Made by a program: the position numbers and the translations under genes
Shown: one piece after another, positions 7,842-63,299 of the stretch
How the letters are laid out: each line of letters begins with the position of its first letter
How positions within the stretch are numbered: the first letter of the stretch is position 1
Assembly (NCBI RefSeq): GCF_965363235.1
Contig: NC_134847.1
Span: 70,038,935 to 70,102,934 of the forward strand
From: Mytilus galloprovincialis
Lineage: Eukaryota
Reading direction: 5' to 3'
Length of the DNA: 64,000 bases
The notes under the pieces: model-generated
The model's database searches: none
Seen by the model: the letters and a program-made list of their open reading frames with translations, nothing else
What the model was told of the DNA's origin: nothing

Positions 7842-8564
7842 AAATGAGTAAGTGTCAGTAAAGGATTTTACAGTTATTTTGATTTCGTAGTGAAGTTTTA
7901 AGTTTATGAATAAATTGAACGCATATGGCTTGGAATGTCTCTAATTGGTCAATTTCTAATGGGAACTGGTTCGAATTCGAGGATGGTAAGTTATAACAAT
8001 GTTCTTCATCAGACATGTTTGCTAGGAAGATACTGAAAGTTATTGGATTGCTATGAATAATTTCACACCAAAAGTAACACGTATTTCGTCGAGATAGGAA
8101 CATCTAAGACTACCATAATACATGTGATAGAGTAGTTTCAGATTGTATAATCAGATAATGAATATGAGAATGTTATTTGAAGTAGCACGGCCCTTCTCTG
8201 ATGCAGTCTATAACAACAATCTTTAGATATACATTCACTTATAGAGATCGCAGATTCATCTAGGAATTCCACGGATGAACAGTCAGTAACAACAAAATAT
8301 AGTTTTTTAAAGAAAAATCTATGGAGTAGAATAAGAGCTATAATGATTTTAAGACAAATTTTAGAAGATTTTCAGCCAATTTTTTGTGCTTTTTTTACAA
8401 ATGTTCCCACAGTTTGAAAGAATTCAATCAGTAAAATTTCAAACAATGAATTAGATAAATGCATTATTTTTTCGTTTTTCAGTTGTAGATCATCGGATCA
8501 AAGTTGAAGACAAATTTTACTGAAATCTGCGACATAGCCCATTTACTATTACTTTACTTTTCCA

Positions 8565-8660
8565 TTTTCAATTGGAGCTCCACTGGTGAGTCTTTTGTAG
8601 ACGAAACGGGCTCCTGGCGCAAATATAATATTACAATCCCGGTATCTATGATGAGTTTTT
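8565..8660 (+). ncRNA. Hammerhead-ribozyme-like motif carried by a short dispersed repeat, with a mutated core (CUGGUGA instead of CUGAUGA)
   Basis: ccaCTGGTGAGTCTTTTGTAGACGAAACgggctcctggcgcaaa...tatctatgatgagtt has an intact helix II (GUCU-uuugu-AGAC) and the GAAAC box. It is homologous to the copies at 47858-47960 and 62455-62560. Confidence 0.35.
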
Positions 8661-9087
8661 TTGAAAACGACATGCTGATTTTCGACATTTTTCAAAATTT
8701 CCCGGTTTTTAAACTTAAAAATCAAAACATGACATGATAATAAACATGATACTATTATTGCAACAATATAGAATATCAATAGTAAGCAAAACACCTAATT
8801 TCTAGTATTTTTTTTTCTTTTTTTTTCAGAAATTTATTGAAAATAAGAAACTCGCAAATTTGCGAGACTATAAACAAGGAAGGTATATAATTAAATCAAG
8901 GTTTGAAATTTGTCCTCTCAATGGTTAAAAGCCTATAGCGGGCTTTTCACCGAAAGAGTAGTACTACATATTCCACAGTAAGATGTACATTTATTTAGAA
9001 ATATAATATTGCTCTATTATCTGACGAATTTTTATTTTGTTTTTCAAGATAAACTAACGCGGAAGTATTATTATGATAAATAAAAAG

Positions 9088-9226: not shown

Positions 9227-9272
9227 TGGAACAACGAAAATCAAGGGACGACAATTGTGGTCTCGGACCTAA

Positions 9273-24003: not shown

Positions 24004-24229
24004 GTTAGCATTTTTTCCCTTAAGGTACTGCTCTTGTGATAGAATAAACATTTGATAGTGATTTGACAAAATTTAGTCCTGGTATCTGTGATGAGTTTAT
24101 TTGATGGTGATCAGAATATTTTTGTTTCAAGGAAGATTAGGTTCTTTCCATTATCTTGGATTTCAAATACTAGAAGACAATTATCCTTATGGAAATATGC
24201 GCATTTTGAGAGTAATAATGTAATTTCTT

Positions 24230-36531: not shown

Positions 36532-38791
36532 GTAATAACAATAAATTAAATCTAATCATAAAAGGTGATACTTTTATCCCACATTGAACATGAAATATGC
36601 ATCATGTTTTTTATTTAATTCCAAACTTGGGAATTCAGTCTTTTTCAGCAAAATTTAATAAAAACAGTACCTATTTCGTGTAATCGATTCCTCCATCAGA
36701 TTTCAACCCTATACATTGAACCTTCACACATATATTGCACAAGTTTTGAAGTTTTGTAGTTTTTATGGAATTGTTTGAGTGTTGCTATATTTTTCTGAAT
36801 GTAAGAAAATAGTCATATTTCTGCAAAGTCTACAAATCAAAATGGTACCAATTGTGTATAACAGAATGATTGCATTTATTTTATATTATTGTAGCTGTGC
36901 ATTTCTATTTTGTAATTATTTGATCAAGTAAGATGAGCTGGTTCATAGCATTCAACAGTAATGTCATTATTACATGTTTGTGTCACAAAATGACTGAATG
37001 AAATAGCTGAACAAATATCAATGTGACAACATTTACAGAAAATGAGTTCATAAAGGAAAAAAAAGAAGAAGAAAAATGATATGATTGATTTGCATTATTC
37101 ACTGTGAGGGTTAACAGTTGCTTTAACATTTAAAAAATGTTATCGGGCCTTAATATATTTCAAGTTATTTAATTTGTCATTGGTTATCTTCTTTTACAAT
37201 TTAAAGTACAAAGTTATTTCCCCTCAACTTTGCAAAATTTGTGTTGGAACAACATTATTTTTGTAGCAAAGTTAATTTTTTATTCAAATCGTGAGCTTGA
37301 AAAAAAAAATTTGTCTAAGTTTTCAACATGAACCAAAGCGCTTTGAAAATACATAAATATTTGGAATGTAACTTGCGGTCATGATGGTTTCACTGAAACT
37401 TTTATGTCTGAGAAATGCAGGCTATCATTTTGGTTAAACGAAAGACTGACTTATCTTTAAAAGAGCTTATAGTGTACTCTTATAAAGCGATTCCCATTGC
37501 CTCACATTGGGGCTTTGAAAGATATCCATTTATGATGAGATTGTGACCTTTATTTTTTAATATGTATGCTCTTTTTTCCGTTTGAATGGTTTTACACTAG
37601 TCATTTTTTGAGCCCCTTTGAAGCTTGCTGTTCGTGTGAGCCAATGCTCCATGTTGAAAACTGTACTTTGACCTATAATGGTTTACTTTTACAAATTGTG
37701 ACTTGAGCAACATGAGCAACACGACGAGCGCCACGTGTGGATCACCTGAAATCCTCCATAGTTTTTGGTAGGGTCCATGTTGTTGTTGTACCCCTATTTG
37801 TGACAGTTTGTTCACTCATCATTGTCAATTTAAGGGAAATTGATGCGACTGTCGTACAAGTGGTTTATTTAGGTGTTATACCACCATTTATTTCCCCTAT
37901 TAGTCTTTGTCTCCCCTTATTTAACTGGTGTATATGCTTTACTATCCACGTAACCTCAACTATACACAATATTCTATAGGAAACCCAAATAAAAACAATA
38001 ATGGTGTTGTGAAATACCCAAGACAAATGTTAATGAAACAGAATTGTTTTACTGCAATAAAATATAAGGATTAGTTACCTACAACTGTCAAATTAAAGGG
38101 AATATTTTTTTACCTATGTTCGTATAAAACCGGATGTGACGTACCATGCTTTAGTGGTATTACACCTTTGGCGCTATACAACCAGATTCAATCCACCATC
38201 TTCTACATTTGAAAATGTATGTCAGGTATGATAGTTGTTGTCCATTCGTTTGATATATTTTATCATTTGATTTTGAAATTTGATGAGGGACTTTCCGTTT
38301 TGAATTTTCCTCGGAGTTCAGTATTGTTGTGATTTTATATTTTGGATGGAAAGTTGTCTCATTGGACATTTTGAAAAATTAATAACATCCACCATTGTTA
38401 TAGCAAAACATAGAATTTTGGGTCTAACAAATTATAAAAGCAATTAATTTGTTTAAGCATTTATTTTTATGATGAATATGATATCTCGAAGAAATAAGTT
38501 TAAATAAACTTTTGAAAAGAGAAAAGGCCTAACCTCTCCATTTGACAAGTGACAATCCATTGAAAAATATAGTTTATGTCACTTTGATTAATACTTTTCA
38601 AATACTTAGGGAAAACACTAAAACAATATCCATCTGCTAATTATTATCTCCCATGAAACTGGTGGATGTATCGTTCCTCGTACAGTCAGAATGTTGGCAG
38701 GCGACAAGTTTTAATCATAATGTGACTACCAGAATATGAAGTCTTACAGGTTCAATATTGATATATTTAAAACTATCATTGTCAATTTCAG

Positions 38792-38918
38792 GAGGCATCT
38801 AATAATTCATCAGATATTACTGAGAATCACACAGCAGTGTCAAATTATGGCGCAATCGAAGATAGAATCTACATAAACTCAGAAGAAACAACACCAACAC
38901 CAATGACCACTCAATCAG
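38792..38918 (+). CDS. IAP linker exon (module B, copy 1), 127 nt: EASNNSSDITENHTAVSNYGAIEDRIYINSEETTPTPMTTQS
   Basis: Acceptor tgtcaatttcag|GAG, phase 0. Donor CAATCAG|gtagat, exits with 1 base. Identical copy at 42653-42779. The diverged but ORF-preserving copy at 45677-45803 supports coding status. Confidence 0.6.
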
Positions 38919-39636
38919 GTAGATTACTAAATAACCCATTTTGTTGTAACAAATAAACAATAAATGTCATGGGTAAGTTCTACAAATTAAATAAGCAAGA
39001 AGCAATCATGGGCTATTAAGAATTCCACTGTGAAATCCCTGTGTTTGATTGGTGTTGAATGGGAACGACATTTTGCCTTTCAACAGGCCACCTACAGACC
39101 ACTCAAAGTGTTCTTGGGTCAGCACATTGAAACCGACGGGAGCTGGTTGTAATTTATAAAATATTGAAAGAGAGAAGGAAAAAAAAAGTTCACATATGAA
39201 AATGAATTCATCATACAAATGAAATGACAAGCGATTTCACCCTTAGAGCAATGGTATATATTTGATCCCACAGAGGAAAGAAATGCATTGTGTTACCAAA
39301 ATATATTCTCTTGAATAAATTACACATGTGTGTCAGCACAGTAGTTTATTTGATGATATTGAACATGTTTTAATTCTTGCAATTGTTCCTTCATGTAATG
39401 TTCTTTTTTACAATCAGCATCCTAAAACGTAATTGTCTAGAGTGTTGAAATATTGTCAAACACGTGTTGCAGTGGTAACCTCTATATGTCATGCTAGTAT
39501 ATAGACGTAAATAAAGTCGGATAAAAACTAATAAAAATGTATACAACTTGTATACAAGTATAGGTTCTGTTAACAATTACTCAATTTTAACTCTAAATTT
39601 AAGATTTCCTGCAATTTACAATACATCAAAATGAAG

Positions 39637-40016
39637 ATGTAAGTATTCAGACAACTGAAGGAGCCATAAACAGATCATTCACTAGAGAAGACATACAAAT
39701 CTCCAATGATGCAGACACTACTTCTCAGTCATTAAATCGAACACAGCAACCTCATGTAGTTCACCATGCAATGAGACCATCAGTAGTTGACAGAAACCGT
39801 TCTGTTTTAGATGGAGAACAGAACAGAACTGAAGATAAAAGCAAGGCAGAGGATTTGGGTATCAGTTTAGAAACACCAAAATGTCAAGATTATGCTCAGC
39901 TGAATGACAGGGTCAGTACATTTCAATGTTGGCCTGGATATTTAGACCAGGCACCAAGGTTTTTTTTATATACAGGATACAATGATCATAAAGGCGATAC
40001 TTTTATATCATATCAA
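39637..40016 (+). pseudogene. Degenerate BIR-like exon (module A*, copy 2). It keeps RVSTFQCWPGYLDQAPR..FFLYTGYND but lacks the CxxC/His/Cys zinc ligands. An open frame runs to a GTATGT donor, so it could be a pseudo-exon or an alternative exon.
   Basis: Relative to copy 1 it has a 15-bp in-frame deletion (DMALA). After YND, ~100 bp are replaced by ~330 bp that includes atcataaaggcgatacttttat, which resembles the intron just 3' of exon A. The candidate acceptor GAAG|AT and donor TATCAA|gtatgt keep phases 1 and 0. The 3' BIR remnant at 40299-40396 is left in an incompatible phase (gctgaatg|gt). Confidence 0.5.
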
Positions 40017-42652
40017 GTATGTTGAAAGATGCCTAATGTTGTTTTTTTTAAATGACCAATATTTTGAATCAAATGAAATTACACATCAGAGTTTAAAAAA
40101 AACTTAAAAAATACATATTAACCAAATATCATTCGTACAAGGATTCTACACTTGTATGAGAGTTTTAAAAAAGCAAGGTTAAATGTCTTTGTTTAAATTA
40201 ATTCTAAAGCAGTTTCATCTGCAGCTGCTGGTAATGGAGGTTTAAGTTGTATAAAATTGACTAAAATGTCAAATGTGTCCAAGTTTCTTTCCTTGGGTAG
40301 AACATGCAAGATGGTTTTCAAAATGTCCATTTGTAAGACAAAACAGAGGTCATAGATTTGTGGAAACAATTACAAAGAGACAGGCTGAATGGTAATAACA
40401 ATAAATTAAATCTAATCATAAAAGGTGATACTTTTATCCCACATTGAGCATGAAATATGCATCATGTTTTTTTTTATTTCCAAACTTGGGAATTCAGTCT
40501 TTTTCAGCAAAATTTAATAAAAACAGTACCTATTTCGTGTAATCGATTCCTCCATCAGATTTCAACCCTATACATTGAACCTTCACACATATATTGGACA
40601 AGTTTTGAAGTTTTGTAGTTTTTTATGGAATTGTTTGAGAGTTGCTATATTTTTCTGAATGTAAGAAAATAGTCATATTTCTGCAAAGTCTATAAATCAA
40701 AATGGTACCAATTGTGTACAAAAGAATGATTGCATTTATTTTATATTATTGAAGCTGTGCATTTCTATTTTGTAATTATTTGATCAAGTAAGATGATCTG
40801 GTTCATAGCATTCAACAGTAATTTCATTATTACATGTTTGTGTCACAAAATGACTGAATGAAATAGCTGAACAAATATCAATGTGACAACATTTACAGAA
40901 AATGAGTTCATAAAGGAAAAAAAAAGAAGAAGAAAAATGATATGATTGATTTGCATTATTCACTGTGAGGGTTAACAGTTGCTTTAACATTTAAAAAATG
41001 TTATCGGGCCTTAATATATTTCAAGTTATTTAATTTGTCATTGGTTATCTTCTTTTACAATTTAAAGTACAAAGTTATTTCCCCTCAACTTTGCAAAATT
41101 TGTGTTGGAACAACATTATTTTTGTAGCAAAGTTAATTTTTTATTCAAATCGTGAGCTTGAAAAAAAAATTTTGTCTAAGTTTTCAACATGAACCAAAGC
41201 GCTTTGAAAATACATAAATATTTGGAATGTAACTTGCGGTCATGATGGTTTCACTGAAACTTTTATGTCTGAGAAATGCAGGCTATCATTTTGGTTAAAC
41301 GAAAGACTGACTTATCTTTAAAAGAGCTTATAGTGTACTCTTATAAAGCGATTCCCATTGCCTCACATTGGGGCTTTGAAAGATATCCATTTATGATGAG
41401 ATTGTGACCTTTATTTTTTAATATGTATGCTCTTTTTTCCGTTTGAATGGTTTTACACTAGTCATTTTTTGAGCCCCTTTGAAGCTTGCTGTTCGTGTGA
41501 GCCAATGCTCCATGTTGAAAACTGTACTTTGACCTATAATGGTTTACTTTTACAAATTGTGACTTGAGCAACATGAGCAACACGACGAGCGCCACGTGTG
41601 GATCACCTGAAATCCTCCATAGTTTTTGGTAGGGTCCATGTTGTTGTTGTACCCCTATTTGTGACAGTTTGTTCACTCATCATTGTCAATTTAAGGGAAA
41701 TTGATGCGACTGTCGTACAAGTGGTTTATTTAGGTGTTATACCACCATTTATTTCCCCTATTAGTCTTTGTCTCCCCTTATTTAACTGGTGTATATGCTT
41801 TACTATCCACGTAACCTCAACTATACACAATATTCTATAGGAAACCCAAATAAAAACAATAATGGTGTTGTGAAATACCCAAGACAAATGTTAATGAAAC
41901 AGAAATGTTTTACTGCAATAAAATATAAGGATTAGTTACCTACAACTGTCAAATTAAAGGGAATATTTTATTACCTATGTTCGTATAAAACCGGATGTGA
42001 CGTACCATGCTTTAGTGGTATTACACCTTTGGCGCTATACAACCAGATTCAATCCACCATCTTCTACATTTGAAAATGTATGTCAGGTATGATAGTTGTT
42101 GTCCATTCGTTTGATATATTTTATCATTTGATTTTGAAATTTGATGAGGGACTTTCCGTTTTGAATTTTCCTCGGAGTTCAGTATTGTTGTGATTTTATA
42201 TTTTGGATTGAAAGTTGTCTCATTGGACATTTTGAAAAATTAATAACATCCACCATTGTTATAGCAAAACATAGAATTTTGGGTCTAACAAATTATAAAA
42301 GCAATTAATTTGTTTAAGCATTTATTTTTATGATGAATATGATATCTCGAAGAAATAAGTTTAAATAAACTTTTGAACAGAGAAAAGGCCTAACCTCTCC
42401 ATTTGACAAGTGACAATCCATTGAAAAATAAAGTTTATGTCACTTTGATTAATACTTTTCAAATACTTAGGGAAAACACTAAAACAATATCCATCTGCTA
42501 ATTGTTATCTCCCATGAAACTGGTGGATGTATCGTTCCTCGTACAGTCAGAATGTTGGCAGGCGACAAGTTTTAATCATAATGTGACTACCAGAATATGA
42601 AGTCTTACAGGTTCAATATTGATATATTTAAAACTATCATTGTCAATTTCAG

Positions 42653-42779
42653 GAGGCATCTAATAATTCATCAGATATTACTGAGAATCACACAGCAGTG
42701 TCAAATTATAGCGCAATCGAAGATAGAATCTACATAAACTCAGAAGAAACAACACCAACACCAATGACCACTCAATCAG
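42653..42779 (+). CDS. Linker exon B, copy 2, identical to 38792-38918
   Basis: Lies at offset 3861 from copy 1 with the same splice sites. Confidence 0.4.
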
Positions 42780-43497
42780 GTAGATTACTAAATAACCCAT
42801 TTTGTTGTAACAAATAAACAATAAATGTCATGGGTAAGTTCTACAAATTAAATAAGCAAGAAGCAATCATGGGCTATTAAGAATTCCACTGTGAAATCCC
42901 TGTGTTTGATTGGTGTTGAATGGGAAACGACATTTTGCCTTTCAACAGGCCACCTACAGACCAGTTAAAGTGTTCTTGGGTCAGCACATTGAAACCGACG
43001 GGATCTGGTTGTAATTTATAAAATATTGAAAGAGAGAAGGAAAAAAAAAGTTCACATATGAAAATGAATTCATCATACAAATAAAATGACAAGCGATTTC
43101 ACCCTTAGAGCAATGGTATATATTTGATCCCACAGAGGAAAGAAATGCATTGTGTTACCAAAATATATTCTCTTGAATAAATTACACATGTGTGTCAGCA
43201 CAGTAGTTTATTTGATGATATTGAACATGTTTTAATTCTTGCAATTGTTCCTTCATGTAGTGTTCTTTTTACAATCAGCATCCTAAAACGTAATTGTCTA
43301 GAGTGTTGAATTATCGTCAAACACGTGTTGCAGTGGTAACCTCTATATGTCATGCTAGTATATAGACGTAAATAAAGTCGGATAAAAACTAATAAAAATG
43401 TATACAACTTGTACACAAGTATAGGTTCTGTTAACAATTACTCAATTTTAACTCTAAATTTAAGATTTCCTGCAATTAACAATACATCAAAATGAAG

Positions 43498-43877
43498 ATG
43501 TAAGTATTCAGACAACTGAAGGAGCCATAAACAGATCATTCACTAGAGAAGACATACAAATCTCCAATGATGCAGACACTACTTCTCAGTCATTAAATCG
43601 AACACAGCAACCTCATGTAGTTCACCATGCAATGAGACCATCAGTAGTTGACAGAAACCGTTCTGTTTTAGATGGAGAACAGAACAGAACTGAAGATAAA
43701 AGCAAGGCAGAGGATTTGGGTATCAGTTTAGAAACACCAAAATGTCAAGATTATGCTCAGCTGAATGACAGGGTCAGTACATTTCAATGTTGGCCTGGAT
43801 ATTTAGACCAGGCACCAAGGTTTTTTTTATATACAGGATACAATGATCATAAAGGCGATACTTTTATATCATGTTAA
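43498..43877 (+). pseudogene. Degenerate BIR-like exon (module A*, copy 3). It has the same lesion as copy 2, plus an in-frame TAA just before the former donor (..TFISC*).
   Basis: Copy 2 reads tat caa|gtatgt, and here it reads tgt taa gtatgt. This is the ORF 43632-43877. Confidence 0.5.
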
Positions 43878-45676
43878 GTATGTTGAAAGATGCCTAATGT
43901 TGTTTTTTTTAAATGACCAATATTTTGAATCAAATGAAATTACACATCAGAGTTTAAAAAAAACTTAAAAAATACATATTAACCAAATATCATTCGTACA
44001 AGGATTCTACACTTGTATGAGAGTTTTAAAAAAGCAAGGTTAAATGTCTTTGTTTAAATTAATTCTAAAGCAGTTTCATCTGCAGCTGATGATAATGGAG
44101 GTTTAAGTTGTATAAAATTGACTAAAATGTCAAATGTGTCCAAGTTTCTTTCCTTGCTAGCAGATGGTTTGGTGGTAAGGCAGTGGGTACTTATATTCCA
44201 TTATTCCTACAGTTTTTATCCCTGAGATTTGAAACGTTACATATGTATTGCACTTATGATGAAGTTGTGTACCTGTAATTATTATTAATTGTTTGGGGAA
44301 TTTTACTTCATATTCTCAGAATTGAGAGCTTAGTAACTTTCAGCAAAATTAACAAACAAATGGTAACCAGTTTTGTGTAATCAACTTCTCTCATAGTTTT
44401 TAATGCGGCAAAATATATTCTAAATTATTGAATATGTAATAAATTATCTTTTTTTTTACAATTTAAATTACTTAGTAATGACCTCTAAATTATGCCAATT
44501 TTTTGTTGGAACAAATTTTTTTTTTAGCAATGTAGCTAAGCTAATTGTTTATCCAATCCTTGATCTTGAAAAGGTTTTCTAAATGAACAAAAGTGCTTAC
44601 AATTATATACAAATTTGAATTGCAACTTGTGATCATAGGTTTCCTTGAGCTTTAAGGTATTTGAAATACCCACAATTGAAGTGCATTGAAGTCATCAGCC
44701 AACAAAGGCTGACTTTAGAATTTATCGTGTACTCCATAACACGTTTTCTTTTGCCTCACGTTGGGGCTGTTAAAATATATATGATCAAGATTGATAGTCT
44801 AATTATAGCAAAAATGAACATTGTCCTTTAATGATATACTTAGCTCAGGTTTTGGGATTTGTGTGGAATGTTCGGACTCCTTAGAGTTTTTTCATACGAT
44901 ACAAGGTAAAATATTTTGCCCCATAACACCGATTTATTATTTCATATAAGACTTAATAGCTCATAAAAGGTCATCTAACAAAATTTCAGCACATTCTTGA
45001 TTTTCTTTCTTTTTATTTGAGACCCAAATAATACCAATACAAATGAAAGGTAAAAGTCCAAGTCAGCCTTTTCCCGTGATATTGTATACATCACATATCT
45101 CGAAAAGGAGTTCCATGACCTATCAATATTTTTAGCTTATTTTGATCCTTAACTAATACTCTTCTAGCTTAAAGCATCAATTTTAAATTCTTAATTTATT
45201 TAATTTTACCAAACTACATCCTCAATTTTCGATAATGAAAGTTAATTGTGTTCTTTTTGTATTAAAATCATGAGTTGTCAATGTAATCATGTCATTACAC
45301 CAAACAACCTGCTGCAAACATTATATGACATAAGTAGTTTGTTTGAAGCATCATTTTGAAAAAAAAATCAATAATTACCACTATTGTAATTTAAAAGTGT
45401 AAATTTGAGTCTAACAAATTTATAACAGCAAAGAAAGTTGTTAACCATTTATTTTATGATGAATACGATAAGTGGATAACTAACCTTTAAAAAGAGAGAT
45501 GACACAACCTCTCCATTTGTTATGTGACAATCCATTCAAAATAGAAACTGGAGGATGTATTGTTCATGATACAGTCAGAATCTTGTCAGGTGCATACACA
45601 TTTTAAACACAATTGCCAACAGAAGCTATTAGCAGTTCCATATTGACATGATAAGAAATATCATTGTTTATTTCAG

Positions 45677-45803
45677 CAAGCACCTAATTACTCATCAGAT
45701 ATTTCTGAGAACCAAGCAGCAGTGTCAAGTTATAGTGAAATAGAAGAAAGAACCCAAATAAACTCACAAGAAACATCACCAACAACAATGGTCACTCAAT
45801 CAG
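45677..45803 (+). CDS. Linker exon B, copy 3: QAPNYSSDISENQAAVSSYSEIEERTQINSQETSPTTMVTQS. It is ~25% diverged, yet the same length (127 nt) with frame and both splice sites conserved.
   Basis: Acceptor ttgtttatttcag|CAA, donor CAATCAG|gtaggt. No stop codon. Confidence 0.5.
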
Positions 45804-47559
45804 GTAGGTTGTAATATCGTATCATCTTTTTGTGGTAACAAATAACAATCGGTGTCATGGGTAGGTTCTACAAATAAAGTTATCAGGAACAAATAATGGG
45901 CTATTTAGATTGACACTGTTGAATTTGGTGTGTTTGATTAATGTTGAATAGGAACAGACATTTTGCTTTCCAACATGCCTCAAACAGTGCACTCAAAGTG
46001 TTAATAAGATGACATGGGGTCACCACATTGAAATTTCCATACACGTTATAAAAAAGAAGATGTGGTAGGATTGCCAATTAGACAACTGTCCACAAGAGAC
46101 CGCTTTTAACATTAATATTTAGACGGGAGCTAGCTGCATATTTATGTGTATATTGTATTGATAAACAAACATGAAGAAAGAAAGTTCACATAAACATAAT
46201 ATAAAACATAATTCATAACACAGAAGAAATGACAAGCGATTTCACCATTAGAGCAATTGAATACATTGGATTAAACAGAGGAATGAAGTGCAGTGTTTTA
46301 CCAAATTATACTATACTATTGAATAAATTACACATATATGTGTCTGTACAGAAGTTTTATATGTTGATGATATTGAGCATGTTTTAATTCTTGACATTTT
46401 CCTTCAAGTTCAGTTTTTTTCACAATGAGCATATTAAAAAATCTGAAATAAATAAATTGCAATTCTTATGGTCTGTTGTTTTGTGGTTTAGAAGGCACTT
46501 TCAAAGGATTGTGGCTTTTTTTTTTTATCTTTCACTTAAATAGTATATAAAGGAATAATTCACAACATGTCTCTATTAACACTGCATATTAATCAAATTT
46601 AATGAGAATATTTCTATAGTTATGCTGGGGCAAAAGAAAATTTGAGATATATATCCATAGAGTAACAACATTACAAGTTCCATGAAATTTGGTGGTTGTA
46701 CTCTCCTGTATAGCAGGTTATGCAAATAGTATTTTTTAAAGTAATAAGCCTGTACGTTAATAGCTAAATGAAAGTTAAAGTAAAATAATATCTTTAAAAT
46801 TTATCTCGACAATTATGCTTTCTCAGCAACCCTTAAGTTAAACTGTATTATGACTGCGATTTTCTGTATAGGAAACCTAAAAATTGAGGCAACAGAAATT
46901 TTGTCGGTGTCGTCGGCGGCGTCCACAAATATTCACTTTGTGGTTAAAGTTTTTGAAATTTTAATAACTTTCTTGAATATCCTGGATTTCTACCAAACTT
47001 GATCAGAAGCTTGTTTATGTTCATAAGATAGTATCCAGGAGTAAATTTTGTAAAATAAAATTCTGTTTTTTCCGTATTTTACTTATAAATGGACTTAGTT
47101 CTTTTCTGCCAGGAAACATTACATTAACTCTGTGGTTAAAGTTTTTAAAATCTTAATAACTTTCTTAAACTATCCTGGAATTGTACGAAACTTGTCCAGA
47201 AGCTTGTTTATAATCAGAAGATAGTATCCAGAAGTTAATTAGGTAAAAATAAAATTCCGTTTTTCCCGTATTTTCTTACTTTCATACAGTCTGCAGTCAA
47301 AGTTTTTCAAACATTTTAAGATTCATAAACTAACCTTGATTTTTACCAAACTTGGACAGAAGCTTCTGACATTCAAAAGATAGTATTAGTATTAAGAGGA
47401 AAAAATTTATTGATTTTTTTCATAATTTTTGTTGAGTATGTGATTAGCAGCAAAAGTAAGCCAGATACTGGGTTCCGCGGAACCCTTACAAATTTTTTAA
47501 CATATTTCTCCGGTGCTTATTAAGTAGAACAAATTCACACTTAAGATATCACATGTAAA

Positions 47560-47850
47560 CAGTGAAAAATTACTTGGCATCATAATCGATGATTGTCTTT
47601 CATGGAATCAACAAATAAACAAAGTATGTACTGTTATTAGTACTAGACTAGGTTTACTAAATCGATTGAAGCATTATATTCCACAAAAAGGTTTATGTTT
47701 TTTTATAATGGATAATTATGTACTTCCTCTTTTTGATTATTGTTGTACAATATGGACTGAAACATGTAATCTAAATATGGAAAAAATGTTAAAATTGCAA
47801 AAAAAGAGCAGCCAGAATCATTCTTTATCATACTTTATTTGGCCTTTTTA
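47560..47850 (+). mobile_element. Fragment of a non-LTR (CR1/Jockey/RTE-like) ORF2 C-terminal region
   Basis: Translates to ..LGIIIDDCLSWNQQINKVCTVISTRLGLLNRLKHYIPQKGLCFFIMDNYVLPLFDYCCTIWTETCNLNMEKMLKLQKKAARII (cf. LGV.ID..L.W..HI, ..P.LEYC..VW, LE.VQRRAAR.I). A frameshift is present and the fragment stops abruptly at the hammerhead-bearing repeat. Confidence 0.55.
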
Positions 47851-47857
47851 ACTTTTT

Positions 47858-47960
47858 TGGGATTCGAGCGTCACCGATGAGTCTTTTGTAGACGAAACGC
47901 GCGTCTGGCGTATATAAAAAATTTAGTCCTGTTATCTTGATGAGTTTATTCTTAACAAAT
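47858..47960 (+). ncRNA. Minimal type-I hammerhead ribozyme motif on a short dispersed repeat, with the core U4 mutated (CCGAUGAG)
   Basis: tcgagcgtcaCCGATGAGTCTTTTGTAGACGAAACGCGCGTC|tggcg. Helix II is GUCU/AGAC, GAAAC is present, helix III ACGCGCGU is a perfect palindrome as in dimer-dependent minimal hammerheads, and GUC precedes the expected cleavage site. A second TGATGAG-like box lies ~55 nt downstream. Confidence 0.4.
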
Positions 47961-49904
47961 CATATGACACACCATCAAAACCTTTATTTAAACAATTAGG
48001 ATGGTTATCTTTTTATTTGAACAGGAATACTTTTGCAAAGAACTATACCGGAATATTGAAATGTTTTCTTCATTAAATTTGTTCTCGGACGTGGTATGAA
48101 AAGACAATTATTGTCCCAAACTTTTAGTTCTTTATTAAATAAATGTCTACGATAATCATGTGCAAGACTAATTACGCACTTATACATTAATACTCCTTTG
48201 TGATATGTGATTCTAATTTGAAAGGATAACCATCTGACATTAACAAAATATGTTTATGAACCTATTCTGTATGTTTTTCGCCTTTTGTTTTGCATAAAAG
48301 TATGTATGTAAATGTATATATATTATATTATTGAATATTTTGATTTATTCAGAGGGCATCAGAGGAGATTAGTATTGTACCAACTGATTTTACCCTCTTT
48401 AAATAAAAGTATTTACTATTATTATTACTTTTATTACTTTCTCACTGGCTCAACAGAAATAAGTAGAAATTTGGCAGCATTTTTTATACTACGTTAGAAA
48501 AGGGGTGAAATTCTTTCTGATATATGCGCTATTTCCTCTTGTCTTGATTTTATTCCCTATGTCACTCCTATATCAAGCGAAGTTTAACTCTTTTTAAAGA
48601 CACATTAACTTTTTATTCCTAAATATTTCCTGTATACAATTACCTGAGTCACACAAGAACAGTCTTAGGGTCCTTGTTTACAAAATGAGCAATCTATCCA
48701 GGGGTAATAAAAGGTCCACTTTTTACCTTGGATTTACAATTTGTGTCAAAAGTATATATATATAATGTGAGAAGCATCTAACAGTTCTAAGCCTTAGTTT
48801 AAAAAAGTAAAATCACAAAAATACTGAACTTAGTGGAAAATCAATTCGGAAAGTCCATAATCACATGGCAAAATCAAATAACAAAACGCATCAAAAACGA
48901 ATGGACAAGAACTGTCATATTCCTGACTTGGTACAGGCATTTTCAAATGTAGAAAATGGTGGATTAAACCTGGTTCTATAGCGCTAACCCTCTCACTTTA
49001 ATGACAATCTCATCAAATTCCGTTATATTTACATTGATGCGTTAACTAAACAGACACAATAAATAAAATAGTAAAAATATGGGTACATCAGTCATCATCG
49101 TATAACAATTTTAACTCTTTATAGTTCCTATGACCCGAATTCGGGTCATAAGCACTTTTTTGCGCAAAATTTTGATTCAAACCTTAAGTTCTTTGCCATT
49201 TGACTATCAACAGATATCACCAAGGGCTTAAATTAACCTGTGAGTTTCAGCTTCACGTTAAAATGCCAGTTGTGTATTTTAGGCTTGATCTTTGTGGCAA
49301 AATAAAGCAATTAAGCTATCATCGTTTTTAAAAAAATCAGTTAAAATTTAACAGAAAAAACTTTAGAATTGTGGAAATCTCGAATTATGAAAATATTGTG
49401 TTTGGTTTCTATAAACCGCAAAAATCGGTCTATTACGGATTTTTTTCTTTCAGTTTTGTGTTGAGCTTTATAAAATGTAGGTTCATAAAGTTATACTTTT
49501 ATTAATTTCTACGAAAAACGAATACAAACAGTGAACATTGTCAACATGTCAATAATTTTCAGCAACTATTTCTTAGAATTTCTGCCCATATCAGTAAAAA
49601 CGTGCATATTGTGGTTCCAGAGGTTTAAATGTAGTAATATAAATAGTATAAATGAAATGCATTTCTTACTACTTGTGTTACTTGTTTTTGAATTATTATC
49701 ATAATTACCCCCCCCCCCCTTTTTTCCCCTTTCCACTATTTTTACCTGGTTTACACACCATCTCACATTTTGTGTTCTTTTAGAGATGTTAAAAAATGCA
49801 TTTTTGACGTTTTTCTGAATATCTAATTATAATTTAATATTTGAATGTAAAAGGTCAATTTAAAAATAAATTTTACAAATAACATTGAAAATAAGTAGGA
49901 ATTT

Positions 49905-56639: not shown

Positions 56640-58470
56640 TGGGGGTATTTAGCTTTAAAAATGTGTCTGATGACCCCACCTAGCAACCAAGTTGTTGAGA
56701 ATATTGCAATATTCCTACTGTTCATATATGTCAGAGGGCCTGTGGGAGATATCCCTTATATGTCAAATATATTCCAAGATTTAAATTCTCTATTGGATAC
56801 TAATAAATCAAAAATAAATCTATTAAATAACATGCTTGTTGATTTAGAAAAAGAGAACATGTCAAATGTATTAGACTATAAAGTGACTAATCAGGAAATA
56901 GTTAAAACATTTACCAATTTAAAACCTGGAAAGGCATGTGGTCTGGACCTGATACTAAATAACATGTAAATACAAGACTTTCTAAACATTTAGATGAGAG
57001 AAATATTTTGATTGATTGCCAAGCTGGCTTCAGAAATAAATTAAGGACACCAGATCACATGTTTATCCTCAAATGCTTTATTGATAAATATACTTATTGT
57101 AAAATAAGTAAATTTTATGCTTGTTTTTTTTTAGCTTTTAATTCTGTGATACACCCAGGTATCCTCAAGGCTCAAGTCAGACATTGGAGGGAAATTTTAC
57201 CAGTGAATTAAACACATGTATACACTTAATAATCAAAGAGTAAAAGTTGATAACAAACTAGGTCCATGTTTTAACTCTTATATTGGGGTTAGACATGGGG
57301 ATATTTTAAGCCCTGTTCTTTTTAATCTATTCATAAATGATCTACCTAACTGTTTACTAAATGGTCCTGATAGTGTAAAACTTAGTCGCATAGACTGTCT
57401 TATGTATGCAGATGATGTCATTGTATTTTCTGATTCTGCTGATGGACTTCAAAAGCGCTTGAAGGCATTGGAATCATTCTGTGATACCTCGTGTCTAAAT
57501 GTTAACTTAAAAAAACTAAAGTTTTACTATTTGATAAAAGTGGACGCCACATAAAAGAACCATTCTATTTTAAAGATGAATTAATTGAAACTGTTTTCAA
57601 ATATAAATACCTTGGAGTTATATTCCAGTCAAGTGGCCTATTTAATTATGCAAAAAAATACATATTTAATAAATCTTTAAAAGCTTCATATAAACGTAAT
57701 AGATGTTTATCTGGCTCAGATGCTAGTATTAAAACAAATTTACATCTGTTTGACCATACCTTTAAACCTATTATTTTGTATGGCTCAGAGATATGGGGAA
57801 TGTTTAAAACCAACTCTGCTTCTTGTATAAAAGATGTTACAAATGTACTTGAAAAAATATACCAGAATAATGTTGCTGATAAAATGAACTTAAAGTTCTG
57901 TAAGCATATTTTAGGCTTAAATAACAAAAGTACAAATGTTGCTGTACAATCAGAATAAGGCAGATTTCCTATATATTTTAATATTGTTATATCTATGATA
58001 AGCTATCTGCATAGATTACATCATTGTAACTCAAATTTGTTGAAAGAAGCGTGTTTGTGTAACAAAGATGTGCATGAAAATAACACTATGACATGGTATT
58101 CCTCTGTTAAATTTATTTTACAAAAGCTTGAATTGAAAGAAACATATAGTATTGATTATTCAATAAATAGATTAAAACAACTTATTATTAAAAAGTTAAA
58201 GACATTATTTTTAAAAGCATGGTTCAATGATAAAGATAAAGTTAATGGAAAGCTCGATATATATTTTTCTCATAAAAGTAATTTCCAAATGGAAAAATAT
58301 CTTGATATTCAAAGTTTTCAATCAAGACAAATTTTATGTAAATTTCGCTTAAGTGCCCACCAATTACGAGTAGAAAAAGAGCGACATAAGAACAAACCTA
58401 TAGAAAGGTCACAGAGGACTTGCAATTTTTGTTCTCATAATGATATATTGAAGATGAGTTTCATTTTTTA
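56640..58470 (+). mobile_element. Degenerate non-LTR retrotransposon ORF2 (reverse transcriptase) remnant with frameshifts
   Basis: Successive frames give KPGKACGLDLI (56661-56969), DCQAGFRNKLRTPDHMFIL (57008-57211), GVRHGDILSPVLFNLFINDL...LMYADDVIVFSDS (57216-57554) and a C-terminal CNFCSHND Cys motif (57995-58471). These are canonical LINE RT blocks in the correct order. Confidence 0.7.
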
Positions 58471-61079
58471 ATAAACTGTCCATTGTATAACAAATGTCGA
58501 GAATCATTGTTTGCACAAGCTCATGAGCACTGTCAAAATTTTAACAACTGAGACTGCAAATCAAATTTTTTTATGGTTAATGACCACTGAAGATAAACAT
58601 ATACTTAAAAAGTTAAGTATTTTTCTTATCCAGAGTTTTGAATTGAGATCCACAAATTATGTTAATGGCTAAATCTCTTTAAGTTTATCCATACATATAT
58701 TTTGAATTCAAAAATTAAATTTAAATACACATTTCTTTATCTATGTGTATGCATATTTCATCTATTAATATGTAAATGCTTATATATGCATTAAGAAACT
58801 GCAGTCAAATCTCTAAGGTGCTTATCATATTCTTGCAATTGTGAAAGAAATATTATTATATACATAAATATCTAGTAATTGGTTGATCTTGGTTGCTGTG
58901 TGTACATGGGAGAAAAATACCTTTATATCTAATCAGTTGCGGCTGCATTTTATTTTTATGCAGCTCAAAACACCATATCTGTTTAAAGGGGAATAATCCT
59001 TACATAAATTGATTGTCTCCCATATTTCTTTATCTTCCATGTGCATGCAATAACTGTTCAGTGTTCTTTTCATTTTATTATTTCATTGTTATAACACAAA
59101 TCATTGTAATTATTATATGAAATTTAAAACCCGCAAAGGTCCATAATTGGATTAATAAAGTAGTCTTATTCTTATACTTATAATGCATCGAACTGATTGC
59201 ATTAAGGTTTATAATAATTTTGTTTAATTTATACCTTATATAATTAATGTTGATTTTATTGTAGGAACTGCCCAATCTGCTTTCACTGTTAAGGAGGAGC
59301 GACTTTGATGATATTAGAAGAGTATGGTCAGAGATCATTGGGCATAGGGGAAGAAGAGATTTTTATGGCTCAGATGCAGATTTGGTTATGGATCCTTTCA
59401 GCAGCCTGCTTCTTAATCATTACAGATTCAACTGTACCAATTTTAATTGTCCTACAAATGAGAGATCATTTGATATGCCTGGATTGACTTTACCACAGTA
59501 AATATAAAGCTCATTTTTGTCCCAATGGTTCAACTGAACTCCTCTCATCACTTTAACGTTAACTTTTACATAAATCTTCTCCTCTGAAACTACTGGATCA
59601 ACATTAAGGTTTCTAGATTAATACATGTCCGATCACCCCGCCTGACAGCAAACATGGCCAACATTCCTGAAAATAGAATATAGGGGAAAATGCAGATTTT
59701 GGATTATATCTCTGAAAATTTGCAGACGAATCAGGCAACCCGTTGTTGGGTTTCTGTCCCTAAATTGATAATTTTATGGAAATGTTTTAAGTTTTTAGAT
59801 ACTAGTATTATTTTTAATTTTATCATAGATATTTAGGAGTAATTGCCATTTATAGTCTTTTTTAACAAATTTTCGTAAACTTTTGTAATCTTTCACAAAA
59901 ATCCTCTCTACTAGAACTACTTTTAAAATATAATTCGCCACAATCATCATTTAGGTATCTAGTTTTTAAAAAATGTGTCTGATAACCCCGCCTTCTAAGT
60001 AGCATGACTAACATTGCTGAATATGCAAGTTTTGTCCATTATTTTGTATAGCATTATAAAGAGAGAAAATTCGACAGGAGCAATATATTTAGAATGCTGT
60101 GCTCTACCAATTGTTCATACATGTCAAAACTGTCAGATGACTTTTTATAGAAATAATGGCCCTTATATGACAAATTTCATTTTTTTTTCAATTGTGCCTA
60201 CTATATTTAAAACATAATAGATAAAAGATCAGCCAGAAAAAATCTATAATCTACGAAATCGTCATTCGACTCCTGTATAGAGTTATAGCCTTTTGATAAT
60301 GATTTTGGCCATTTTTTGCGTTCTGTCTTATATCATAAAATGATTAGCAAAACAAATACTAGGAGGAAGAAAATATTGACGTTTTTGACCTTTAAAGACC
60401 TCTTTAATTTGAGATTTTGCCACATATGATTGAAAACTATAATGGATAAAGATACACTTTGATTCAAAATTATCAGCAAATCAAGATCTACTAACAAGCC
60501 TTATTTGACAATATAGTTAAGTAGACTGTCACTCTTTTAATGATTACACTTAAATGAGGATTTGTTTTATCCTCTTTTGTGATTTAAGCAAAAACTTAAG
60601 AATGCAGAGACTACACTAAAAAAAAGTCAAATCACAAAAATACTGAACTCAGAGGAAAATCAATTCGGAAAGTCCATAATCACATGGCAAAATCAAATAA
60701 CAAAACGCATCAAAAACGAATGGACAAGAACTGTCATATTCCTGACTTGGTACAGGCATTTTCAAATGTAGAAAATGGTGGATTGAACCTGGTTTTATAG
60801 CTAGCTAAACCTCTCACTTGTATGACAGTCTCATCAAATTCCATTATATAGTCACCGATGCGTGAACAAAACAAACAGACATAATAGGTAAAAATGTCAA
60901 AAATAGGGGTACAGCAGTCAACATTGTGTTATCATCTTAATCACTATAAAAACAACAAATGTAACGAAGAAGCACAAAAAGGCATACATCAAATTAACAT
61001 CCTCATTTTGATTATATAATACGATTATATTTGTCTATGTAAAATGCACCCATCAAGGAAGGAGGGTATGGGTACTGGT

Positions 61080-61530: not shown

Positions 61531-62454
61531 ATTAATAAAGACAAATAAAAGAATAATATAACACGCAATTAAGATGATAAACAACGTCAGTACGCAAAAT
61601 CTATACTTCAAGACCATCGTGTATTATTTGTGAAGTTGATACGGAATATTTATCAACAAGTTCTGGGTACCTTCCGATGAACTTTTTTAGAAAAAGGACT
61701 AAAAAGGTAGAGATATTTAAAATACAAGATCAGATTTTTGTCATAAATTTTATTCCTGTCAAAAATGGTGCAGATAATGCTTTTCTTGAATATGCACAAA
61801 GATTAAGGTGAGCGACACAGGCTCTGTAGTTTTGGCTCACAAATGATAATAATTTTCTTGTTTACCTATCAACAAACTTGTAAAAAAAAGGATGTTTGAT
61901 GTATTGCAAATGACACTACTTTCTGTAATTGACTTAAGATAATAATCTGATGTCTGGGTAAAAAAATACCACTATGATGTTAAAAGCCCAAAGGTGACTA
62001 AATCTTAATTAATTTAAAGAGTAAACCAATGTCTTATTTATAAAAACAAAAATAAATAGAAAATTTAATCAGCCAAGAATCGAATTGTAAAATATCGGAC
62101 TTTTTTTCATAAAACAAGAATAAAAAAAGTAATGTGATGCTAGTGAGATAACTCTCTTCAACAGACCAAATGACACTGATATTAACAGCTATAGTTCTCA
62201 GTACATCCTTCATATTAAAGGCCAATGGGATTATCAGCAGCCAAGTAGTCAGCACTGTGTGTTCACATGAATCATCATTGATGTGGTTATATGGTTATAA
62301 TTATAAATTAACTGTTGAACACAACTTTGAATTTTTGAATTACTAAGATTTTTCTACCTCAGGAGTAGATTAACTAAGTTGCATTCGGCAAAATTTTTAC
62401 GAATTTCGGGACCTCAATGCCCTTCAACTTCGTACTTTCTTTGAACTTTTTAAC

Positions 62455-62560
62455 TTGTTTGTATTCGAGCGTCCCTGATGATTTTTTTGTAGAAGAAACG
62501 CGCCCTGGCGCAAAAATTAAATTTTAATCCTTGTATCTATGATGAGTTGATTTGCTATCT
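62455..62560 (+). ncRNA. Hammerhead-ribozyme-like motif, third copy. The core CUGAUGA is intact but helix II is decayed (GAUUUUUUUGUAGAAGAAAC).
   Basis: tcgagcgtccCTGATGAtttttttgtagaaGAAACgcgccctggcgcaaaa...tatctatgatgagtt. Shares ~100 bp of homology, including the upstream ctttttaac..attcgagcgtc, with 47858 and 8565. Confidence 0.35.
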
Positions 62561-63299
62561 TAGCTTATTTTTAACAGGTACTAAGTTCGGCAGAAAGACT
62601 GATTGATTTATCTTTACAAACAAGGTTGACCCTATCACTAGAATAGGAACACTTTTTTAAATATTTTATAGAATCAAATTGATATTTAACTTTGACGAAA
62701 TAAAATTTTTTTGAACCTCTTATTACATAATCTTAATTGTAGCAGTGTCAATTATCATAGGAATTCGGGTATGCTAACCATATCTTATACTAACTTATTA
62801 ACGGAAGGAAAATTGACAGCTTAGTCTAATGTTTAAAGCTAAATAATCTGATAAAAAGTGACTGAACACAGCCAGTAACGGCCTTCCAAATACCGTTTCG
62901 ATCCCTAACATCACTGAAGAGACATTTATTTTCGAAATCCGGATCTGGTGTACTAAAAATATATTGACACCGTATGTTTGTGGCATAATTTCGTGGCCAC
63001 AAGTTAATTTTTTTCTGTTTAGTATTAAATTTATATTAAGATCCATTTTGTTACATCTTGTGATCAATTGTATTTGGCAATCGCCAATGGCTGTCAGCAG
63101 GATTAAAGAACATCAGTTGTTCGACCTGTTAGTCAAATTCGTTTTGTTTGAATATACTTTTTTACTTTTTTGGTCTTTTGGAAAATGTTGTTTAATTGTG
63201 CTGTTTTTAGACCCTTCTACAACGAAATTTGTTTTACATGCACACGTATTAAAATTGCGGTTTTTATCCAACGCAATCATAGGTTTGAACGTAGTTTTC

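What the first reader, a model, noticed from the sequence alone, without database searches (positions are those of the whole stretch)
47858..47960. Family of short repeats carrying a minimal type-I hammerhead ribozyme with a palindromic helix III (PLE/retrozyme-like), all copies core-damaged
Three ~100-bp homologous copies (8565, 47858, 62455) plus a 3' fragment (24066-24110) contain a CUGAUGA box, helix II GUCU/AGAC, GAAAC, and then ACGCGCGU followed by C. That is the architecture of dimer-dependent minimal hammerheads known from Penelope-like elements and retrozymes. Each copy has a different inactivating change (U4 to C, A6 to G, helix II decay), so the active consensus can be reconstructed: ..CUGAUGAGUCUUUUGUAGACGAAACGCGCGUC|. 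A second TGATGAG-like box ~55 nt downstream in every copy hints at a tandem or dimeric arrangement.
Basis: partly seen in the sequence, partly recalled or inferred. Interest (0 to 1): 0.65.

Follow-up and report, generated by a model that had tools for sequence, protein, structure and literature searches.

The report
Decayed mussel hammerhead retrozyme copies

Summary
The window is Mytilus galloprovincialis DNA (gene LOC143049571, an IAP/BIR gene). It holds five same-strand copies of one repeat, not three and a fragment.

The repeat is the published mussel non-LTR retrozyme (Cervera & de la Peña 2020, NAR; clone Mg353 and a 393-nt circRNA consensus). Copy 47822-47950 is 92.8% identical to that consensus.

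All window copies are shorter than one unit and carry a single ribozyme. They share one 3' end, 47 nt past the cleavage site, and have different 5' ends. They are 73-93% identical to the consensus. This fits dead, 5'-truncated retroposed relics.

Three points need correcting:
- The ribozyme is the canonical metazoan type I form, not the PLE minimal form, and the cloned monomer cleaves by itself.
- The second UGAUGAG box is only part of the 3' tail. It reads UGAUAAC in a sister subfamily.
- A fifth, divergent copy (62880-62991) keeps an intact core through compensatory changes.

Rfam's threshold is not decisive, because intact relatives also score just below it.

Verdict: already known, low interest.

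The parts
47822..47950 (+). The given copy: a 5'-truncated solo copy of the Mg retrozyme, covering unit positions 308-393 plus 1-46. It is the youngest copy in the window and lies in an intron of LOC143049571, in sense orientation.
   Evidence: BLAST to the published consensus gives 92.8% over 125 bp, E=2e-44. Alignment. Exon map.
47868..47911 (+). Type I hammerhead motif of that copy. Helix I is 47868-47873 with 47906-47911. The core CCGAUGA is 47874-47880, with U4->C at 47875. Helix II is 47881-47884 with 47890-47893. GAAA is 47894-47897. Helix III with its loop (ACGCGCGU) is 47897-47904. C17 is 47905, and the would-be cleavage site lies between 47905 and 47906.
   Evidence: Rfam RF00163 scores 29.4 bits (gathering score 34), E=1.4e-5 locally and 0.0037 for the whole window. 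Sequence read.
47925..47950 (+). Conserved 3' tail (UAGUCCUGUUAUCU-UGAUGAGUUUAUU) that holds the 'second UGAUGAG box'. It is the shared 3' terminus of all solo copies, not a ribozyme.
   Evidence: In the sister subfamily it reads UUGAUAACUAU. Only weak chance C-box snoRNA hits were found.
8553..8664 (+). Older 5'-truncated solo copy, about 80% identical to the consensus. The hammerhead region is 8575-8623, with A6->G (8586), 16.2 G->U (8612), 16.1 U->C (8613) and one helix I mismatch. It lies upstream of the gene.
   Evidence: No RF00163 hit at E<=10.
24063..24102 (+). 3'-terminal fragment of about 36-40 bp (unit positions ~10-47, 97% identical). It is flanked by a 12/13 target-site duplication, ATTTGATAGTGAT (24050-24062) and ATTTGATGGTGAT (24099-24111). 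It lies about 60 nt into intron 1.
   Evidence: A match of 12 or more occurred in about 2% of 2000 random placements. Exon 1 ends at 24002.
62232..62553 (+). Longest copy, covering unit positions 98-393 plus 1-47, 73-79% identical, with the common 30-nt indel. The hammerhead region is 62467-62514. A2.1 is changed to C. Helix II is kept as UUUU/AGAA. One nucleotide is deleted in helix III and U16.1 is lost (CC at 62504-62505).
   Evidence: No RF00163 hit.
62880..62991 (+). Fifth, divergent family member (61% identical to the consensus, same 3' end). Its hammerhead at 62908-62951 reads ACAUCA-CUGAAGA-GACA-UUUAU-UUUC-GAAA-UCCGGA-UC|UGGUGU. The core is intact, helix I is 6 bp, helix III is the palindrome AUCCGGAU, and helix II has one C.U mismatch.
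   Evidence: nhmmer E=0.19 with the small profile and E=0.0066 with the full-unit profile. It was the only hit of a hand-made descriptor in the window, against a null mean of 0.125. It shows four both-sided compensatory changes. Rfam gave no hit.

Best explanation
These are five dead solo insertions of the known Mytilus galloprovincialis non-LTR retrozyme. That element is a non-coding, non-autonomous retroelement of about 350-390 bp whose unit carries one type I hammerhead ribozyme.

[quoted passage not shown] A host tRNA ligase of the RtcB type circularises them. The circles are thought to be reverse-transcribed and inserted by the machinery of an autonomous retrotransposon, with Penelope-like elements as the favoured candidate.

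The window copies are by-products of that process. Each is shorter than one unit and has a single ribozyme. All share one 3' end, 47 nt downstream of the cleavage site, and they have different 5' ends, as expected from target-primed reverse transcription that stops early. They have since decayed neutrally by 7-39% from the consensus.

They cannot make circles, because that needs two cleavage sites. The three main copies have also lost invariant core or helix III nucleotides.

Shown here: homology, boundaries, mutations and one clear target-site duplication. Taken from the literature: self-cleavage and circRNA production. Inferred: the insertion mechanism and the present lack of function.
For: Species: the 544-aa BIR ORF and 13 exons match XP_076079288.1 of M. 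galloprovincialis at about 100%.

Identity of the repeat: the published clone Mg353 and the circRNA consensus (PMC7229834 supplement) align to 47828-47950 at 92.8%, to 62239-62553 at 74-79%, to 8553-8662 at 81% and to 24068-24102 at 97%. A full-unit profile finds five hits, all on the + strand, and four of them reach the profile's 3' end at positions 362-363. The fifth alignment stops at 350, with its envelope reaching 62994.

Fixed 3' end: independent solo copies in marine-metagenome and MAG contigs (L002, L006/L011, L008, L009, L013) end at unit positions 45-48. In L003 (a tandem array) and L012 the sequence runs on into the next unit.

Target-site duplications: 12/13 at the 24066 fragment and 10/11 at L002.

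Structure: over 11 sequences, 94.7% of cells pair in the hammerhead structure, 5 pairs carry a both-sided change, and 0 of 500 shuffles reach these values.

Published function: kobs about 0.1/min for the cloned unit, circRNAs in gonad and mantle, and RtcB circularisation.
Against: - No tandem array or full unit lies in the window, so circRNA production from these loci cannot be claimed.
- Target-site duplications are convincing for only one window copy. The others are no better than chance.
- No Rfam hit reaches the gathering score.
- The minimum-energy fold of the isolated 49-nt consensus is not the hammerhead fold: -14.1 against -6.7 kcal/mol. This says little for a ribozyme stabilised by tertiary contacts.
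- The mobilising enzyme is unknown. The only reverse-transcriptase remnant in the window is R2/LINE-like and shares no tail with the repeat.
Confidence: 0.9

Rival explanations
1. The copies are the terminal repeats (solo pLTRs) of 5'-truncated autonomous Penelope-like elements whose 3' ends share the retrozyme sequence. They would then not be insertions of the non-autonomous retrozyme itself.
For: PLE insertions are typically heavily 5'-truncated and carry their hammerhead near the 3' end (PMC8557442). A 2026 preprint finds vertebrate retrozymes to be sister to PLE pLTRs. The window copies show exactly this pattern of a common 3' end and variable 5' ends.
Against: The ribozyme has the canonical retrozyme architecture (6/4/2 bp). 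It is not the PLE minimal form with a 6-8 bp helix II, a bulged base and no loop 3, and the 2020 paper assigns the atypical variants to mussel PLEs. The longest copy matches retrozyme unit sequence for 322 bp. ORFs of 85 aa or more gave no PLE-type RT or GIY-YIG domain, and the one RT fragment is closest to R2 and LINE enzymes.
Confidence: 0.12
2. The sense-oriented intronic copies are functional ribozymes or regulatory RNA elements of the IAP gene LOC143049571.
For: All five copies are on the gene's strand, and four lie in its introns. The divergent copy at 62908-62951 keeps a complete catalytic core.
Against: Each of the three main copies has a different change at an invariant position. Identity to the consensus is 73-93%, as for neutral decay. 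Five out of five on one strand has a chance of only 1 in 16. A single ribozyme in an intron would only cut the pre-mRNA.
Confidence: 0.03
3. The resemblance is chance, or the repeat is another RNA class, for example a C/D-box snoRNA suggested by the AUGAUGA box.
For: Weak Rfam snoRNA hits of 13-24 bits overlap the second box. No family reaches its gathering score.
Against: BLAST E-values to an experimentally characterised element are 2e-44 and 8e-64. The snoRNA hits rest on the C box alone and lie far below threshold. The box is not conserved in the sister subfamily.
Confidence: 0.01

Closest known systems
Mytilus galloprovincialis non-LTR retrozyme (clone Mg353; HHR A/B families; Cervera & de la Peña 2020, NAR 48:5054, PMC7229834)
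   Same: It is the same sequence family: 73-93% identity, an identical ribozyme consensus, and the same species.
   Different: The window copies are solo, shorter than one unit, 5'-truncated and mutated. The published element is a tandem repeat of 350-390 bp that is expressed as circRNA.
Canonical metazoan type I hammerheads in tandem repeats (Schistosoma Sm-alpha, newt satellite 2; Rfam RF00163)
   Same: Same architecture: a 6-bp helix I, a 4-bp helix II and a very short helix III with a palindromic loop. The segments GAGUC...GACGAAACGCGCGUC are identical to the RF00163 consensus.
   Different: The host and the surrounding repeat differ. Amphibian motifs need dimers, whereas the cloned single-ribozyme mussel unit cleaves on its own.
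Minimal hammerheads of Penelope-like elements (Cervera & de la Peña 2014, PMC4209133)
   Same: Both are type I with palindromic helix III positions. Both sit near the 3' end of a retroelement that is often 5'-truncated. PLEs are the likely mobilising partner.
   Different: PLE motifs have a 6-8 bp helix II with a bulged base, a short helix I and usually no loop 3. They flank an RT/GIY-YIG ORF. None of these features is present here.
SINEs mobilised by target-primed reverse transcription
   Same: Non-coding, dispersed, with a common 3' end, variable 5' truncation and target-site duplications of about 9-13 bp.
   Different: No tRNA-, 7SL- or 5S-derived head and no poly(A) or microsatellite tail were seen, and the unit carries a T11 run. 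The active form is thought to be a ribozyme-made circle.

Membership tests
Hammerhead ribozyme, type I (Rfam RF00163) | Invariant catalytic core: C3 U4 G5 A6 N7 G8 A9, G12 A13 A14, the A15.1-U16.1 pair, and H17 | tested here: not met
It is met by the family consensus and by the divergent fifth copy at 62914-62945.
Hammerhead ribozyme, type I (Rfam RF00163) | Three helices around the core, with helix I open-ended | tested here: met
   In copy 47868-47911 the helices are 6, 4 and 2 bp. Over 11 sequences, 94.7% of cells pair, 5 pairs carry a both-sided change, and 0 of 500 shuffles reach this.
Hammerhead ribozyme, type I (Rfam RF00163) | Covariance-model score at or above the gathering score of 34 bits | tested here: not met
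   Copy 47868-47911 scores 29.4 bits, and the other copies give no hit. Relatives with the intact published core also fall short at 32.5-33.3 bits, so the threshold does not discriminate for this family.
Hammerhead ribozyme, type I (Rfam RF00163) | Site-specific self-cleavage | not testable with these tools
   Published for the consensus sequence in clone Mg353 (kobs about 0.1/min, PMC7229834). Not known for the mutated window copies.
Mytilus non-LTR retrozyme | Sequence homology to the published unit | tested here: met
   92.8% over 125 bp (E=2e-44), 79% over 294 bp (E=8e-64), 81% over 110 bp and 97% over 35 bp.
Mytilus non-LTR retrozyme | Head-to-tail tandem units, so that two ribozymes flank one unit | tested here: not met
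   All five window copies are shorter than one unit, with one ribozyme each. Tandem units were seen only in the external locus L003. The window copies are therefore relics of the family, not competent members.
Mytilus non-LTR retrozyme | Expression as linear and circular RNA of 350-400 nt | not testable with these tools
   Published for the family. No RNA data are available here.
PLE minimal hammerhead / PLE pLTR | Long helix II (6-8 bp) with a bulged nucleotide, a short helix I, and no or minimal loop 3 | tested here: not met
   Helix II is 4 bp with no bulge, helix I is 6 bp, and loop 3 is GCGC. Definition taken.
PLE minimal hammerhead / PLE pLTR | Repeats flank an ORF with a telomerase-like RT and a GIY-YIG endonuclease | tested here: not met
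   No such ORF was found among ORFs of 85 aa or more. The only RT fragment (57216-57554) is closest to R2 and LINE enzymes. Shorter, degraded ORFs were not searched.

The most novel reading that the evidence does not exclude
Solo copies of the mussel retrozyme share a fixed 3' end 45-48 nt downstream of the ribozyme cleavage site. This holds for 10 of 11 independent copies here. Their 5' ends vary, and some have target-site duplications of 9-13 bp.

This would mean that reverse transcription starts at one defined site, within the conserved tail UCCUGGUAUCUAUGAUGAGUUUAUUU. The template would then be either a circle entered at that site or a linear, uncleaved master RNA that ends there. It would not be the ribozyme-cleaved linear monomer.

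The 2020 review states that no conserved motif pointing to the mobilising element is known for animal retrozymes (PMC7761336). This tail would be that handle, and it could be matched to the 3' end of a specific mussel PLE or LINE.
Probability: 0.45. Interest if true: 0.35.

Novelty: already known. Interest (0 to 1): 0.15.

Why it matters
The case shows that a tool-free reader can recognise a real ribozyme family and rebuild its active sequence exactly from three damaged copies. Biologically it adds nothing to what is published for mussel retrozymes.

Two small points may be of use:
- The shared 3' end of truncated copies is a testable clue to where reverse transcription starts, and hence to which autonomous element mobilises animal retrozymes.
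- The Rfam type I hammerhead threshold misses this experimentally active mussel ribozyme by less than 2 bits, so genome annotation by Rfam alone under-reports the family.

Tried and rejected
- Rfam at gathering threshold on the window and on 11 external loci gave no hits. I rejected this as a refutation, because intact relatives score 32.5-33.3 against 34.
- A second ribozyme at the downstream UGAUGAG box was rejected. No GAAA or helix II follows it, and the box reads UGAUAAC in the sister subfamily. The snoRNA reading of that box was rejected because the hits are only 13-24 bits.
- A strict hammerhead descriptor found nothing in the window. A version relaxed to 3 of 4 helix II pairs found only 62914-62945.
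- Thermodynamic folding of monomers and homodimers did not recover the hammerhead fold and was uninformative.
- Target-site duplications for copies 8565, 47858, 62455 and 62906 were no better than random placements.
- The weak similarity upstream of the 24066 fragment (24011-24067) was judged to be chance, because the target-site duplication lies inside it.
- The search for a PLE in the window found only an R2/LINE-like RT remnant. ORFs in the external loci L002, L009 and L010 gave an Ephrin exon and nothing else.
- GC-rich hits L004, L005, L007, L014 and L015 are chance matches in bacterial DNA. The viral collection gave no hit.
- The retrozyme unit has no ORF longer than 63 aa, so I ran no further search on it.

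Full report
**1. The observation**

The four stretches align with one another. Pairwise BLAST gives about 80% identity with E-values of 1e-15 to 1e-23. Two diagnostic patterns occur three times each, against 0.13 and 0.00 expected by chance. All copies are on the + strand.

In copy 47868-47911 the parts read as follows:
- helix I: GCGUCA/UGGCGU
- core: CCGAUGA, with U4->C at 47875
- helix II: GUCU-UUUGU-AGAC
- GAAA, then helix III ACGCGCGU, then C17 at 47905

Rfam's type I hammerhead model (RF00163) matches this copy over its full length at 29.4 bits. The gathering score is 34. E is 1.4e-5 for the local search and 0.0037 for the whole window. The copies at 8565 and 62455 give no RF00163 hit even at E<=10.

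**2. Where the window comes from**

The window has 28-35% G+C. A 544-aa ORF (27506-29140) carries a BIR domain. It is 100% identical to a Logan-assembled protein whose cluster includes XP_076079288.1, 'uncharacterized protein LOC143049571 [Mytilus galloprovincialis]'.

Thirteen exons of that protein map to the + strand between 23769 and 59498 at about 100% identity. The last ~150 residues are not in the window. The window is therefore M. galloprovincialis nuclear DNA. The copies at 24066 and 47858 lie in introns of this gene in sense orientation. The copies at 62232 and 62880 lie downstream of the last mapped exon and are intronic if, as inferred, the gene's remaining exons lie beyond the window end. 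The copy at 8565 lies upstream of the gene.

**3. What the repeat is**

Cervera & de la Peña (2020, PMC7229834) reported about 5000 type I hammerheads in this species. They sit within tandem repeats of 350-390 bp, which the authors call non-LTR retrozymes. A cloned genomic unit self-cleaves co-transcriptionally at about 0.1/min. The repeats are expressed as abundant circular RNAs, most notably in gonad and mantle, and RtcB ligase circularises the cleaved monomer.

The paper's supplement gives the clone Mg353 and a 393-nt consensus of cloned circRNAs. BLAST of these against the window gives:

| Window region | Identity | Aligned length | E-value |
|---|---|---|---|
| 47828-47950 | 92.8% | 125 bp | 2e-44 |
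| 62265-62555 | 79% | 294 bp | 8e-64 |
| 8553-8662 | 81% | 110 bp | 1e-21 |
| 24068-24102 | 97% | 35 bp | 9e-11 |

The family is thus already known and experimentally characterised.

**4. Anatomy of the window copies**

Aligned to a dimer of the consensus, the copies cover these unit positions, numbered from the cleavage site:

| Copy | Window coordinates | Unit positions covered |
|---|---|---|
| 62455 | 62232-62553 | 98-393 plus 1-47 |
| 47858 | 47822-47950 | 308-393 plus 1-46 |
| 8565 | about 8553-8664 | ends at 47 |
| 24066 | fragment | about 10-47 |

A profile built from full units finds five hits, all on the + strand. Four reach the profile's 3' end and the fifth stops a few positions short.

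The fifth hit, 62880-62991 (E=0.0066), is a strongly diverged member. No copy contains unit positions 48-97, and none reaches a second ribozyme.

The pattern is one shared 3' end, 47 nt downstream of the cleavage site, with varying 5' ends. The 24066 fragment is flanked by a 12/13 direct repeat, ATTTGATAGTGAT and ATTTGATGGTGAT. A match of that quality was reached in about 2% of 2000 random placements. For the other window copies no target-site duplication stands out from chance.

**5. Copies from elsewhere**

One scan of metagenome contigs for GACGAAACGCGCGTCTGGCG returned 11 loci. Eight of them are AT-rich and homologous to the retrozyme. One of these (L002) also carries an Ephrin exon, so it is animal DNA. 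A scan of prokaryotic genomes found one more copy on a contig of a 'cyanobacterium' MAG, which is most simply explained as contaminating animal (probably bivalve) DNA.

- L003 is a tandem array of more than two units, and L012 runs on into the next unit.
- L002, L006 (the same locus as L011), L008, L009 and L013 are solo copies that end at unit positions 45-48.
- L010 ends earlier, at position 27.
- L002 has a 10/11 flanking repeat, TTATATCAA.

Counting the window, 10 of 11 independent solo copies share the 3' end.

Most external copies belong to a sister subfamily. In it the tail reads AAUCCUGGUACUUUUGAUAACUAUUA, so the 'second UGAUGAG box' is not conserved there. That box is not a second catalytic box.

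Because the search pattern fixed the 3' half of the ribozyme, only the 5' half of these copies is unbiased. In that half, CUGAUGAG is intact in four of six full motifs.

**6. State of the ribozymes**

- Copy 47858 has a single core change, U4->C.
- Copy 8565 has A6->G, 16.2 G->U, 16.1 U->C and one helix I mismatch.
- Copy 62455 has lost U16.1 through a 1-nt deletion and a change (GUC becomes CC). It also has A2.1->C. Its helix II still pairs as UUUU/AGAA, through a G10.1-C11.1 to U-A double change and a C-to-U wobble.
- The fifth copy reads ACAUCA-CUGAAGA-GACA-UUUAU-UUUC-GAAA-UCCGGA-UC|UGGUGU. All invariant core positions are kept, position 7 being free. Helix I has six pairs, helix III is again an 8-nt palindrome (AUCCGGAU), and helix II has one C.U mismatch.

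The fifth copy was the only hit of a hand-written descriptor in the window, against a null mean of 0.125 hits per shuffled window.

On an alignment of 11 motifs, 94.7% of cells pair and five pairs show both-sided changes, four of them in the fifth copy. None of 500 shuffles reaches these values, and all slid controls are far lower. The fifth copy is only 61% identical to the consensus overall. Retention of every core nucleotide and four compensatory pairs indicates that it diverged while under selection as a ribozyme. It therefore looks like a separate subfamily rather than a decayed copy of the Mg353 type. This rests on one sequence, and Rfam does not recognise it.

**7. The Rfam test**

Relatives whose core is identical to the active published ribozyme score 32.5-33.3 bits, still below 34. 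The failure of the window copy (29.4 bits) therefore says only that U4->C costs about 4 bits. The threshold cannot decide membership for this family.

**8. Which kind of hammerhead**

By the definitions in Cervera & de la Peña 2014, canonical metazoan type I motifs have a 6-bp helix I, a 4-bp helix II and a helix III of 1-2 bp capped by a 2-4-nt palindromic loop. PLE 'minimal' motifs have a 6-8-bp helix II with a bulged base, a shorter helix I and usually no loop 3. The motif here is the canonical kind.

The 2020 paper contrasts efficient monomeric cleavage in invertebrate retrozymes with dimer dependence in amphibians. 'Dimer-dependent minimal hammerhead' is therefore not the right label, although the palindromic helix III is real.

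Nearest-neighbour folding of the isolated 49-nt motif prefers another structure (-14.1 against -6.7 kcal/mol). I treat this as uninformative.

**9. Mechanism and rivals**

The best explanation (confidence 0.9) is that these are neutral relics of retrozyme retroposition, made by reverse transcription that began at a fixed site and stopped early.

The main rival is that they are solo terminal repeats of truncated autonomous PLEs that share this sequence. This view is encouraged by the usual 5' truncation of PLEs and by a 2026 preprint linking vertebrate retrozymes to PLE pLTRs. Three things count against it:
- The ribozyme architecture is the retrozyme kind.
- The longest copy matches retrozyme unit sequence for 322 bp.
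- No PLE ORF was found in the window. The only RT fragment (57216-57554, RVT_1 E=8e-15) is closest to R2 and LINE enzymes.

A present function in the host gene is unlikely, because each main copy is hit at a different invariant position.

**10. Novelty**

The element, its ribozyme, its activity and its circRNAs are all published, so the finding is already known.

The one point I could not find in the papers read is the fixed 3' end of solo copies. The 2020 review says that animal retrozymes show no conserved motif pointing to their mobilising element. I offer the shared end as a modest, testable lead only. It rests on 11 copies.

Noticed in passing
The core is intact, helix III is the palindrome AUCCGGAU, and there are four compensatory pair changes relative to the published mussel ribozyme. 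It may represent a further retrozyme subfamily.
   Followed up: partly
window 56661-58471, + strand: Degraded non-LTR retrotransposon in an intron. ORF 57216-57554 matches RVT_1 (E=8e-15) and is closest to R2 and LINE reverse transcriptases in the PDB. It shares no sequence with the retrozyme tail.
   Followed up: partly
window 35970-46310: Tandem duplication of about 3861 bp, with a third, more diverged unit, that repeats BIR-domain exons of LOC143049571. Two units are 98-100% identical.
   Followed up: no
window 9267-15745: Five or more head-to-tail copies of a 1289-1291 bp repeat at 98-99% identity, starting about 600 bp downstream of the 8565 retrozyme copy. It has no homology to the retrozyme.
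   Followed up: no
window 18941-20165: Minisatellite with a 21-bp period, in several blocks.
   Followed up: no
window 63314-63838: Near-perfect palindrome of about 525 bp, with nested arms of 179 nt (93% complementary) and 76 nt (87%). It gives weak mir-2804-like hits on both strands and is probably a foldback or MITE-like element.
   Followed up: partly
window 48801-48982 and 60620-60801: A 182-bp dispersed repeat, two copies at 97% identity, of unknown nature.
   Followed up: no
L013 214-282 (contig CALHGI010000550.1, 'uncultured cyanobacterium' MAG): A contig of a bacterial MAG carries a 5'-truncated retrozyme copy related to the mussel family. The contig, or part of it, is therefore probably contaminating animal (bivalve) DNA.
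   Followed up: partly
L002, L003, L006, L008 (Rfam scores): Hammerheads with the same core as the experimentally active mussel ribozyme score 32.5-33.3 bits, just under the RF00163 gathering score of 34. Rfam-based annotation would therefore miss this family.
   Followed up: yes
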